64,000 bases of DNA, taken from Escherichia coli O127:H6 str. E2348/69 (GTDB lineage: Bacteria > Pseudomonadota > Gammaproteobacteria > Enterobacterales > Enterobacteriaceae). The stretch lies in assembly GCF_000026545.1 (NCBI RefSeq), contig NC_011601.1. The stretch is one strand, 5' to 3'. The position numbers and the translations under genes were made by a program. Position 1 is the first letter of the stretch, and each line of letters starts with the position of its first letter. Positions 25,133 to 25,380 of the stretch are shown piece by piece. The notes below the pieces were generated by a model, which worked only from the letters and a program-made list of their open reading frames with translations, had not been told where the DNA came from and made no database searches.

Positions 25133-25380
25133 CTGCTTATCCTGTGTGGAAATGAATTATTAGGATTTGTAATAGCGATGATGCACAGTATATACATAGG
25201 GTTTATCGTCAACATGGATATATAAGAGTAGGGGACTACTCTCTTACTATTTTTACTCTATTATCGTTAAATAATAGAGTAGTATAAATACGATAAGTTA
25301 AGCATCATCTCTCATAGGGTTTAAATTAACATAATTCTCAATATAAAAAATAAGACTCTGGCTTCAATTGTGCGCGGATT

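What the first reader, a model, noticed from the sequence alone, without database searches (positions are those of the whole stretch)
25226..25282. Cluster of TACTCT/AGAGTA inverted repeats in the ydeP upstream region
An 11-bp perfect inverted repeat (tactctattat - cgttaa - ataatagagta, 25254-25281) and a second 7-bp one (agagtag - ggga - ctactct, 25226-25243) lie about 100-150 bp upstream of the ydeP start codon, further from the EvgA box. Repeated dyads of one motif suggest an operator for an unidentified regulator, or a small hairpin element.
Basis: seen in the sequence. Interest (0 to 1): 0.3.

Follow-up and report, generated by a model that had tools for sequence, protein, structure and literature searches.

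The report
Stem-loops in the ydeP mRNA leader
The repeated TACTCT/AGAGTA dyads are real. They lie inside the transcribed 5' leader of the acid-resistance gene ydeP, not in its promoter, and most likely form two RNA hairpins, one conserved and one varying between lineages. This is an ordinary, uncharacterised leader structure rather than a new regulator's operator.

Summary
The window is E. coli Nissle 1917. Both dyads exist. The 11-bp perfect repeat is at 25254-25281. The 7-bp repeat is at 25225-25242, one base off the stated coordinates. They exceed chance: the 11-bp repeat appeared in 5 of 2000 shuffles, and four copies of the hexamer in 0 of 2000.

The interpretation needs correcting. The EvgA box is at 25381-25398. 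Both published promoter placements start transcription at about 25333 or at 25315. The dyads therefore sit at about +35 to +91 of the ydeP mRNA leader.

As RNA they form two stable hairpins (z -4.3 and -6.7) inside a leader closed by a long-range helix (z -4.0).

Hairpin A has an invariant stem in all 26 haplotypes. It is longer in a divergent Escherichia outgroup, where its loop differs.

Hairpin B varies:
- B2 strains (about 19% of genomes) carry the TACTCT form.
- K-12-type strains (about 63%) carry a different sequence that still makes a 14-bp hairpin.
- Other lineages and the outgroup have weak or no hairpin B.

The fourfold motif is therefore lineage-specific, which argues against a four-site operator. 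The segment is single-copy and matches no Rfam family.

Function is untested. Covariation is not significant. Interest is low.

The parts
25225..25242 (-). Hairpin A. On the mRNA strand it reads AGAGUAG-UCCC-CUACUCU: a 7-bp stem, plus a G.U closing pair at 25243/25224, and a 4-nt loop. It lies about +74 to +91 from the 25315 start.
   Evidence: Sequence. RNA fold -9.4 kcal/mol, z -4.25. None of the 14 stem columns varies across 26 haplotypes, against 29% variable columns in the leader overall. The loop varies in two haplotypes. In the divergent outgroup L132 the stem is 10 bp (AUGAGAGUAG-CCCC-CUACUCUCAU).
25254..25281 (-). Hairpin B. On the mRNA strand it reads UACUCUAUUAU-UUAACG-AUAAUAGAGUA: 11 perfect pairs plus a U.G pair, with a 4-nt loop. 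It lies about +35 to +62.
   Evidence: pair I5. RNA fold -12.1 kcal/mol, z -6.71. Varies by lineage: B2 form -12.1 kcal/mol; K-12 form a 14-bp stem at -11.4; D/F form -6.3; GPEC60 form -1.7. 13 of the 24 stem columns vary.
25243..25253 (-). A-rich linker between the two hairpins. It belongs to a run of six A-R-N triplets (AGUAAAAAUAGUAAGAGA), a possible Hfq distal-face motif.
   Evidence: run of 6 in Nissle (15 of 5000 shuffles reach it), 5 in K-12 (74 of 5000), only 3 in outgroup L132 (not significant). Function is inferred only.
25302..25312 (-). 5' strand of the long-range helix 1 (AGAGAUGAUGC), which encloses both hairpins.
   Evidence: MFE and centroid folds of the leader. Predicted in all 14 haplotype folds. 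10 of 10 pairs are invariant. One C-G to U.G change occurs in L113.
25174..25184 (-). 3' strand of the long-range helix 1 (GCAUCAUCGCU).
   Evidence: (pair I8). Conserved in outgroup L132.
25315..25315 (-). 5' end of the ydeP leader as used in the literature: -178 from the ATG in K-12, -183 here because of a 5-nt indel.
   Evidence: The T7 template primer ...GGGATGAGAGATGATGCTTAACTTATCG in PMC11210196 Table S3, together with the '-178 to +10' statement. A TGTTAATTT extended -10-like element lies directly upstream in the sequence. The experimental basis of this start was not retrievable.
25340..25367 (-). Sigma-70 promoter-like element, TTGAAG-16-TATATT.
   Evidence: Consensus scan. The same hexamers are listed for ydeP in the RpoD genomic-SELEX table of PMC3946193, with an H-NS mark. 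Conserved in L132.
25381..25398 (+). EvgA box, TTCTTACAAGTGTAGGAT (one mismatch to TTCYTACA-N2-TGTARGAA).
   Evidence: The only other hit in the window is upstream of safA, at 22717-22734. The consensus was recalled from Masuda & Church 2003 and Itou 2009.
25130..25132 (-). ydeP start codon.
   Evidence: ORF 22853..25132. RefSeq annotation 'acid resistance putative oxidoreductase YdeP'.

Best explanation
The dyads are the DNA image of two RNA stem-loops in the roughly 180-nt 5' untranslated leader of ydeP mRNA. Transcription is activated from the EvgA box at 25381-25398 and starts at about 25333 or at 25315. Both dyads are therefore transcribed, at about +35 to +91. In the RNA they fold as hairpin B (11-12 bp) and hairpin A (7-8 bp). 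They are separated by an A-rich linker and sit inside a multibranch domain closed by a conserved long-range helix that begins 3 nt from the 5' end. Shown: the position relative to the promoter elements, the thermodynamic stability, the invariance of hairpin A, and the lineage-specific remodelling of hairpin B. Inferred: that these structures act at the RNA level. The most likely role is to stabilise or shape the leader, by protecting against 5'-end-dependent or RNase E decay or by presenting the A-rich linker. They are unlikely to be a protein operator. Hairpin A is the constrained element. Hairpin B is a younger, evolving helix whose TACTCT form is specific to B2-type strains.
For: Location:
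- The EvgA box is at 25381-25398.
- The promoter TTGAAG-16-TATATT is at 25367..25340.
- The leader 5' end is at 25315.
- An activator box must lie upstream of the start, so every plausible start is 5' of 25281.

Stability:
- Hairpin B folds at -12.1 kcal/mol, z -6.7.
- Hairpin A folds at -9.4 kcal/mol, z -4.25.
- The 71-nt pair of hairpins gives z -5.4.
- The 214-nt stretch from the 25333 start folds at -41.9 kcal/mol, z -3.96.
- The K-12 segment gives z -6.97.

Conservation:
- The hairpin A stem varies at 0 of 14 columns across 26 haplotypes, against a 29% background, while 2 of its 4 loop columns vary.
- In the outgroup L132, whose ydeP is 95% identical in nucleotides, substitutions lengthen stem A to 10 bp (G.U to G-C, A.A to U-A) and change the loop.

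Hairpin B keeps its dyad symmetry while changing sequence:
- The C-G pair in B2 is an A-U pair in K-12 and L143, with U.U in the D/F type and the outgroup.
- The K-12 5-nt deletion produces a 14-bp stem.
- About 82% of 5,300 genomes carry one of the two strong forms.

Strand bias:
- Substitutions in stems give G.U on the mRNA strand more often than C.A (8 versus 3-4).
- 96.0% of cells pair on the sense strand against 86.7% on the antisense strand.
Against: - Covariation is statistically weak. Only one pair shows compensatory change, and 43 of 500 shuffles reach the observed score.
- The G.U versus C.A bias is not significant (binomial p about 0.1).
- The sense/antisense pairing comparison is biased, because the structure was derived from the sense strand.
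- Paired and unpaired columns vary about equally (26 of 98 versus 30 of 94).
- Hairpin B is disrupted in several lineages (GPEC60, STN0717, XJ34) and is absent from the outgroup. It cannot be essential.
- A palindromic DNA site would give the same pattern of conserved stem and variable spacer for hairpin A.
- No experiment links these hairpins to ydeP expression.
- The primary evidence for the transcription start (Itou et al. 2009, recalled from memory as the likely primary source) could not be read. No start or 3' end for ydeP was found in two high-throughput data sets.
Confidence: 0.55

Rival explanations
1. The hairpins have no function. They are quasi-palindromes in AT-rich, H-NS-bound, horizontally acquired DNA. 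Their near-perfection in some lineages comes from mutational template switching (quasipalindrome correction, or copying between the two neighbouring dyads), not from selection.
For: - Hairpin B is a variation hotspot: 13 of 24 stem columns vary. The 131-nt segment is only about 90% identical between Nissle and most strains, against 95% for the whole 401-nt query.
- Several lineages carry disrupting changes.
- Covariation is not significant.
- In B2, three clustered substitutions make the arms of hairpin B identical to those of hairpin A. That is the signature of templated mutation.
- The intergenic region is 32.5% GC and carries an H-NS mark.
Against: - The hairpin A stem is invariant in 26 haplotypes, against a 29% background, and is strengthened in the outgroup.
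- Helix 1 is invariant.
- The B2 C-G pair needs changes on both arms, which simple one-arm correction does not give.
- Two strong but different hairpin B forms dominate the species.
Confidence: 0.25
2. Hairpin A (AGAGTAG-N4-CTACTCT) is an 18-bp palindromic DNA operator for a dimeric repressor. The repressor binds downstream of the start, at about +74 to +91, and blocks elongation.
For: - The arms are perfectly conserved while the 4-bp spacer varies.
- In the outgroup the palindrome extends symmetrically.
- ydeP is known to be repressed indirectly via YdeO, by unresolved factors (PMC11210196).
Against: - The site lies far downstream of the start, which is unusual for operators.
- No second copy exists in the 64-kb window, which includes ydeO, safA and gadBC.
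- The dyad matches neither the EvgA box nor the GAD box.
- The four-site reading fails because hairpin B has a different sequence in most strains and different spacing.
Confidence: 0.12
3. On the plus strand, hairpin A followed by ATTTTTAC is an intrinsic terminator for a transcript antisense to the ydeP 5' region.
For: The terminator scan finds it on the plus strand (stem 25225-25242 or 25227-25248, tail ATTTTTACTC). It found 2 sites against 0.2 expected.
Against: - No plus-strand promoter-like site lies in 25050-25225.
- The 9-bp extended stem is broken in K-12-type strains.
- The U-tract is short and interrupted.
- No antisense RNA is reported in the literature searched.
Confidence: 0.04
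4. The dyads belong to a repetitive extragenic element (REP, MITE or similar).
For: The palindromic architecture. In addition, an 11-nt direct repeat, CATAGGGTTTA, flanks the cluster at 25195 and 25313 (family D1).
Against: - The segment is single-copy in 5,300 genomes: median 1 place, maximum 2, even with word-11 blastn at E up to 10.
- No Rfam match.
- The flanking direct repeat is perfect only in Nissle-type strains and is 8 of 11 in K-12.
Confidence: 0.01

Closest known systems
Stabilising 5'-UTR stem-loops of E. coli mRNAs (ompA-type leader; Emory, Bouvet & Belasco 1992, from general knowledge)
   Same: A long leader carrying discrete hairpins. A helix begins within about 3 nt of the 5' end, and AU-rich single-stranded segments lie between the stems.
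   Different: No half-life or mutational data exist for ydeP. There is no sequence relationship. The 5'-proximal helix here is long-range and encloses both hairpins, rather than being a simple terminal hairpin.
[quoted passage not shown]
   Same: Same regulon. The leader was examined as an RNA regulatory target in the same study.
   Different: CsrA did not bind the 188-nt ydeP leader in vitro. On the mRNA the hairpin A loop reads UCCC, not GGA. The GGGA lies on the opposite strand.
EvgA box operator (TTCYTACA-N2-TGTARGAA)
   Same: A dyad-symmetric element in the same intergenic region.
   Different: The sequence differs. The EvgA box lies about 100 bp further upstream, at 25381-25398, and the dyads do not match it.
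RyhB/Hfq-controlled mRNAs (RyhB represses ydeP in Shigella flexneri; Oglesby et al. 2005, cited in PMC3071730)
   Same: ydeP is a reported RyhB-dependent gene. An (ARN)5-6 run lies between the two hairpins.
   Different: No RyhB complementarity better than shuffled controls was found at or near the dyads. The ARN run is absent from the outgroup. Whether RyhB acts directly is not known to me.

Membership tests
Structured 5'-UTR (leader stem-loops) | The element lies between the transcription start and the start codon | tested here: met
   EvgA box at 25381-25398. Promoter at 25367..25340. Leader 5' end at 25315. Dyads at 25225-25281. The start itself is taken from the literature, not measured here.
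Structured 5'-UTR (leader stem-loops) | Folds more stably than composition-matched random sequence | tested here: met
   z -6.7 (hairpin B), -4.25 (hairpin A), -5.4 (both), -3.96 (214-nt stretch from the 25333 start). K-12 form -6.97.
Structured 5'-UTR (leader stem-loops) | Base pairs supported by covariation across relatives | tested here: inconclusive
   One compensatory pair (C-G / A-U / U.U). 43 of 500 shuffles reach the observed score. 8 changes to G.U against 3-4 to C.A. Sampling depth is limited to Escherichia.
Structured 5'-UTR (leader stem-loops) | Structure-dependent effect on mRNA stability or translation | not testable with these tools
   Needs mutagenesis and reporter or half-life assays.
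Transcription-factor operator (four half-sites of one motif) | Half-site sequence and spacing conserved among strains with the same regulation | tested here: not met
   The TACTCT/AGAGTA arms of dyad B occur only in the B2 haplotype (1015 of 5310 records). The K-12 type (3356 records) has AATCT/AGATT. Hexamer gaps are 6 versus 16 nt and the arm order is opposite.
EvgA box | Match to TTCYTACA-N2-TGTARGAA | tested here: not met
   With up to 3 mismatches only 25381-25398 and 22717-22734 match.
Repetitive extragenic palindromic / MITE-like elements | Many dispersed copies per genome | tested here: not met
   Median 1 and maximum 2 places per genome, by megablast and by word-11 blastn at E up to 10.
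Any Rfam family | Covariance-model match | tested here: not met
   The best hits have E of 1.6 or more and score far below gathering thresholds.
Intrinsic terminator / attenuator on the ydeP strand | G+C-rich stem followed by a U-tract, with alternative 2:3 pairing for an attenuator | tested here: not met
   No minus-strand terminator-like site. The tails are AAAAAUAG and UAUAUAUC. Segments 2 and 3 are both AGAGUA-type and are not complementary.
CsrA-binding leader | GGA motifs in loops on the mRNA, and CsrA binding | tested here: not met
   The loop on the mRNA reads UCCC. The published gel shift was negative.

The most novel reading that the evidence does not exclude
The two hairpins and the A-rich (ARN)5-6 linker form a post-transcriptional control module. 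Hfq would bind the linker, which is presented between the stems, and an sRNA would act through it. RyhB is a candidate because it represses ydeP in Shigella. Alternatively, pH or temperature could shift pairing between UUAUCG (25291-25296) and its two possible ACGAUAA partners. Either route would set ydeP mRNA stability or translation. Independent strengthening of hairpin B in the B2 and K-12 lineages would then be adaptive tuning of acid resistance.
Probability: 0.12. Interest if true: 0.5.

Novelty: new member of a known kind. Interest (0 to 1): 0.2.

Why it matters
ydeP is needed for extreme-acid survival of exponentially growing E. coli and Shigella. Its control has been described almost entirely at the promoter (EvgA, H-NS, indirect YdeO and CsrA effects). 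Placing these dyads in the transcript rather than the promoter changes which experiments make sense: RNA probing and leader mutagenesis instead of a search for DNA-binding proteins. It also identifies natural haplotypes with a strong, weak or absent hairpin B, plus an IS insertion in hairpin A, that could serve as ready-made variants. If the leader proved regulatory, it would add a post-transcriptional layer to the AR2 network and might explain the RyhB effect. If not, this is simply an unremarkable structured leader.

Tried and rejected
- **Rfam.** A permissive scan of 24900-25700 gave only chance-level hits.
- **Outgroup search in species genomes.** The genome-contig scan with the YdeP N-terminus was saturated by distant FdhF/YdeP homologues (best 73%, Providencia). 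It returned no Escherichia locus.
- **Nearest non-Escherichia orthologues.** Edwardsiella (86% identity) and Hafnia (71%) have unrelated upstream regions, so they give no comparative information.
- **Transcription start evidence.** Itou et al. 2009 and Thomason et al. 2015 are not held. ydeP and its coordinates are absent from the Cappable-seq and Term-seq supplements. The RIL-seq supplements are not held.
- **RyhB pairing.** The RyhB sequence was validated by Rfam. Duplex prediction against the leader gave no site at the dyads, and the full-length duplex was no better than shuffles. The seed-region duplex was nominally better than shuffles (14 of 300) but lies in the coding region (25081-25112). 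I rejected this as evidence.
- **Classical attenuator logic.** I rejected this because segments 2 and 3 are not complementary, and the alternative 1:3 pairing (pair I4) exists only in B2.
- **Promoter inside hairpin B.** The promoter-like site TTTATA-17-GATAAT at 25288..25260 is at chance frequency, and the K-12 5-bp deletion destroys it.
- **The 28-codon uORF.** I rejected this as a conserved gene because its start codon is lost in several lineages and in the outgroup.
- **GAD-box match in the leader.** There is none within 3 mismatches.

Full report
**1. Context**

The window is identical to E. coli Nissle 1917 across the ydeP-ydeQ intergenic region. ydeP occupies 22853..25132 on the minus strand, and ydeQ, a fimbrial adhesin-like gene, occupies 25471..26385 on the same strand. 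'Upstream of ydeP' therefore means increasing coordinates. The ydeP mRNA is the reverse complement of the window.

**2. The observation**

The 11-bp perfect inverted repeat sits at 25254-25264 / 25271-25281, exactly as reported. The 7-bp dyad AGAGTAG-GGGA-CTACTCT sits at 25225-25231 / 25236-25242, one base below the stated coordinates.

Both exceed chance:
- In 2000 dinucleotide shuffles of the 338-bp, 32.5% GC spacer, a perfect repeat of 11 bp or more with a short loop appeared 5 times.
- Four TACTCT/AGAGTA hexamers never appeared (mean 0.21).
- No other 60-nt stretch of the 64 kb holds more than one copy of the hexamer.

The window contains about eight perfect repeats of this size in all. 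One of them, at 22809-22839, lies just past the ydeP stop codon and looks like its terminator.

**3. Where the dyads sit relative to transcription**

- The EvgA box consensus matches twice in the window: at 25381-25398 upstream of ydeP and at 22717-22734 upstream of safA.
- A sigma-70-like promoter, TTGAAG-16-TATATT, lies at 25367..25340. Shimada et al. list the same hexamers for ydeP in their RpoD genomic-SELEX table, together with an H-NS mark (PMC3946193). That promoter would start transcription near 25333.
- Gorelik et al. used a ydeP 5' leader from -178 to +10. Their T7 template primer begins ATGAGAGATGATGCTTAACTTATCG, which maps to 25315. Nissle carries 5 extra nucleotides, so its leader is 183 nt. 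A TGTTAATTT extended -10-like element lies directly upstream of that position.
- An activator box must lie upstream of the start. Any plausible start is therefore 5' of 25281.

Both dyads are thus transcribed. Counting from 25315, hairpin B is at about +35 to +62 and hairpin A at about +74 to +91. I could not read the primary start-site evidence, and two high-throughput data sets contain nothing for ydeP. This step rests on two independent literature sources plus promoter geometry.

**4. Folding**

| Segment (mRNA strand) | Energy (kcal/mol) | z-score |
|---|---|---|
| Hairpin B, Nissle | -12.1 | -6.7 |
| Hairpin A | -9.4 | -4.25 |
| 71-nt segment with both hairpins | -21.6 | -5.4 |
| 214-nt stretch from the 25333 start | -41.9 | -3.96 |

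In the fold of the full leader, both hairpins sit inside a domain closed by a long-range helix (25302-25312 paired with 25174-25184) and a second helix (25290-25296 paired with 25203-25209). The long-range helix begins at +4.

The plus strand folds nearly as well (z -4.3), as any palindrome must. No Rfam family matches.

**5. Comparison across E. coli**

The 401-bp region is present once in 5,327 of 5,426 complete genomes. The 73-nt dyad segment is single-copy even by word-11 blastn at E up to 10. It is therefore not a repeat-family element.

I collected 20 genome loci and 92 metagenome contigs anchored on an invariant block near the ribosome-binding site. Together they gave 26 distinct leader haplotypes.

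*Hairpin A.* None of its 14 stem columns varies, against 29% variable columns in the leader overall. Two of its 4 loop columns vary.

*Hairpin B.* This is a variation hotspot, with 13 of 24 stem columns variable. Its main forms are:

| Haplotype | Arms (5' / 3') | Stem | Energy (kcal/mol) | Exact matches among about 5,300 records |
|---|---|---|---|---|
| B2 type | UACUCUAUUAU / AUAAUAGAGUA | 11 bp perfect | -12.1 | 1015 |
| K-12 type | UUUAAUCUAUUGUU / GAUAAUAGAUUAAA, after a 5-nt deletion | 14 bp, two G.U | -11.4 | 3356 |
| D/F type | CAUUCUAUUAU / AUAAUAGAUUA | 9 bp | -6.3 | 262 |

Minor forms (GPEC60, STN0717, XJ34) carry further mismatches, down to -1.7 kcal/mol.

The 'one motif, four copies' pattern is therefore specific to the B2 haplotype. 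K-12, where ydeP regulation was worked out, carries the hexamer only in hairpin A.

**6. A divergent outgroup**

Contig L132 carries a ydeP that is 95% identical in nucleotides over the first 900 nt. It keeps the EvgA box, both promoter candidates, the start region, helix 1 and the block next to the ribosome-binding site.

Its hairpin A is longer, at 10 bp (AUGAGAGUAG-CCCC-CUACUCUCAU). A G.U pair has become G-C, an A.A mismatch has become U-A, and the loop has changed. Its hairpin B region does not fold into the same hairpin.

L132 also has the 5-nt segment and U.U at the pair that is C-G in B2 and A-U in K-12. The strong forms of hairpin B therefore look derived, and they arose at least twice.

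More distant ydeP orthologues (Edwardsiella 86%, Hafnia 71%) have unrelated upstream regions. The leader is restricted to Escherichia.

**7. Is it RNA structure, a DNA site, or neither?**

*For RNA:*
- The dyads lie in the transcript.
- Dyad symmetry is kept in hairpin B while its sequence changes.
- Stem substitutions more often give G.U on the mRNA strand than C.A (8 versus 3-4).
- 96.0% of cells pair on the sense strand against 86.7% on the antisense strand.

*Caveats:*
- Formal covariation is not significant. There is one compensatory pair, and 43 of 500 shuffles reach the observed score.
- The G.U bias is not significant.
- The sense/antisense comparison is biased, because the structure was derived from the sense strand.
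- Paired and unpaired columns vary about equally.
- Hairpin B is clearly dispensable in some lineages.

*For a DNA operator:* only hairpin A remains a candidate. It has conserved arms and a variable 4-bp spacer. But it lies about 75-90 nt downstream of the start, has no second copy in the window, and matches neither the EvgA box nor the GAD box.

*For neutrality:* hairpin B varies heavily. In B2, three clustered substitutions make its arms identical to those of hairpin A, which fits templated mutation.

I weight these readings as follows:

| Reading | Confidence |
|---|---|
| RNA leader stem-loops | 0.55 |
| Non-functional quasi-palindromes | 0.25 |
| Operator at hairpin A | 0.12 |
| Plus-strand terminator | 0.04 |
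| Repeat element | 0.01 |

**8. Known interactions**

CsrA does not bind this leader in vitro. That is consistent with the loop reading UCCC on the mRNA.

RyhB represses ydeP in Shigella (Oglesby 2005, cited). I verified the RyhB sequence with Rfam. I found no pairing at the dyads, and the full-length duplex was no better than shuffles. The seed-region duplex was nominally better than shuffles (14 of 300) but maps to the coding region, not to the dyads.

An (ARN)5-6 run between the hairpins is enriched in E. coli (15 of 5000 and 74 of 5000 shuffles reach it) but is absent from the outgroup. It is a lead, not a finding.

No paper in the searchable library describes hairpins in the ydeP leader.

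**9. Verdict**

The feature is real and non-random, but its location was misread. It is a pair of stem-loops in the ydeP 5' leader, not a promoter operator. Hairpin A is conserved. Hairpin B is lineage-variable. This is an uncharacterised instance of a common kind of element, and its interest is low.

Noticed in passing
window 25371-25379 and 25420-25428: A G+C-rich 9-bp perfect inverted repeat, TGCGCGGAT / ATCCGCGCA, brackets the EvgA box with a 40-nt loop. It is largely conserved across strains and in outgroup L132. It could be the ydeQ operon terminator region or a structural feature of the promoter.
   Followed up: partly
L020 (E. coli 03_3013), locus about 370-420: An IS3-family IS1203 element is inserted within hairpin A and separates the ydeP promoter from the gene. 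This is a natural leader disruption.
   Followed up: no
L014 (E. coli 2015C-3121): The ydeP leader is followed about 100 nt later by a truncated ydeO pseudogene. This implies deletion of ydeP, safA and part of ydeO in this STEC strain.
   Followed up: no
window 25215..25129 (minus strand): A 28-codon upstream ORF ends in UGA overlapping the ydeP AUG (AUGA). It is intact in Nissle and K-12. Its AUG is lost in the D/F and GPEC60 types and in outgroup L132, and most substitutions are non-synonymous. It is probably not a conserved peptide.
   Followed up: partly
window 25315..25298 (minus strand): The literature 5' end falls on the A of an AUG. That AUG opens an invariant 5-codon mini-ORF (AUG AGA GAU GAU GCU UAA), so the transcript would be formally leaderless for this mini-ORF.
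   Followed up: no
window 25195-25205 and 25313-25323: An 11-nt perfect direct repeat, CATAGGGTTTA, flanks the dyad cluster. It is perfect only in Nissle-type strains (8 of 11 in K-12), so it is probably coincidental.
   Followed up: partly
window 25133-25185 (minus strand; alignment A2 leader columns 131-183): The roughly 50 nt just upstream of the ribosome-binding site are almost invariant across all haplotypes and the outgroup. The stretch contains TTAGGATTT on the plus strand (25160-25168), the first 9 nt of the GAD box. The full GAD box does not match. An exact GAD box lies at 10771-10790.
   Followed up: partly
window 25291-25296 versus 25261-25267 and 25203-25209: UUAUCG near the 5' end of the leader can pair with either of two ACGAUAA copies. 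One copy lies inside hairpin B. In weak-hairpin-B haplotypes the MFE fold switches to that partner, which suggests a possible alternative conformation.
   Followed up: no
window 22809-22839: A 12-bp perfect inverted repeat lies 14 nt past the ydeP stop codon. It is probably the ydeP terminator.
   Followed up: no
L101-L104 (Edwardsiella, Hafnia): The closest non-Escherichia YdeP proteins (86% and 71% identity) sit in unrelated gene neighbourhoods with unrelated upstream regions. The EvgA-controlled leader is therefore an Escherichia-specific acquisition.
   Followed up: partly
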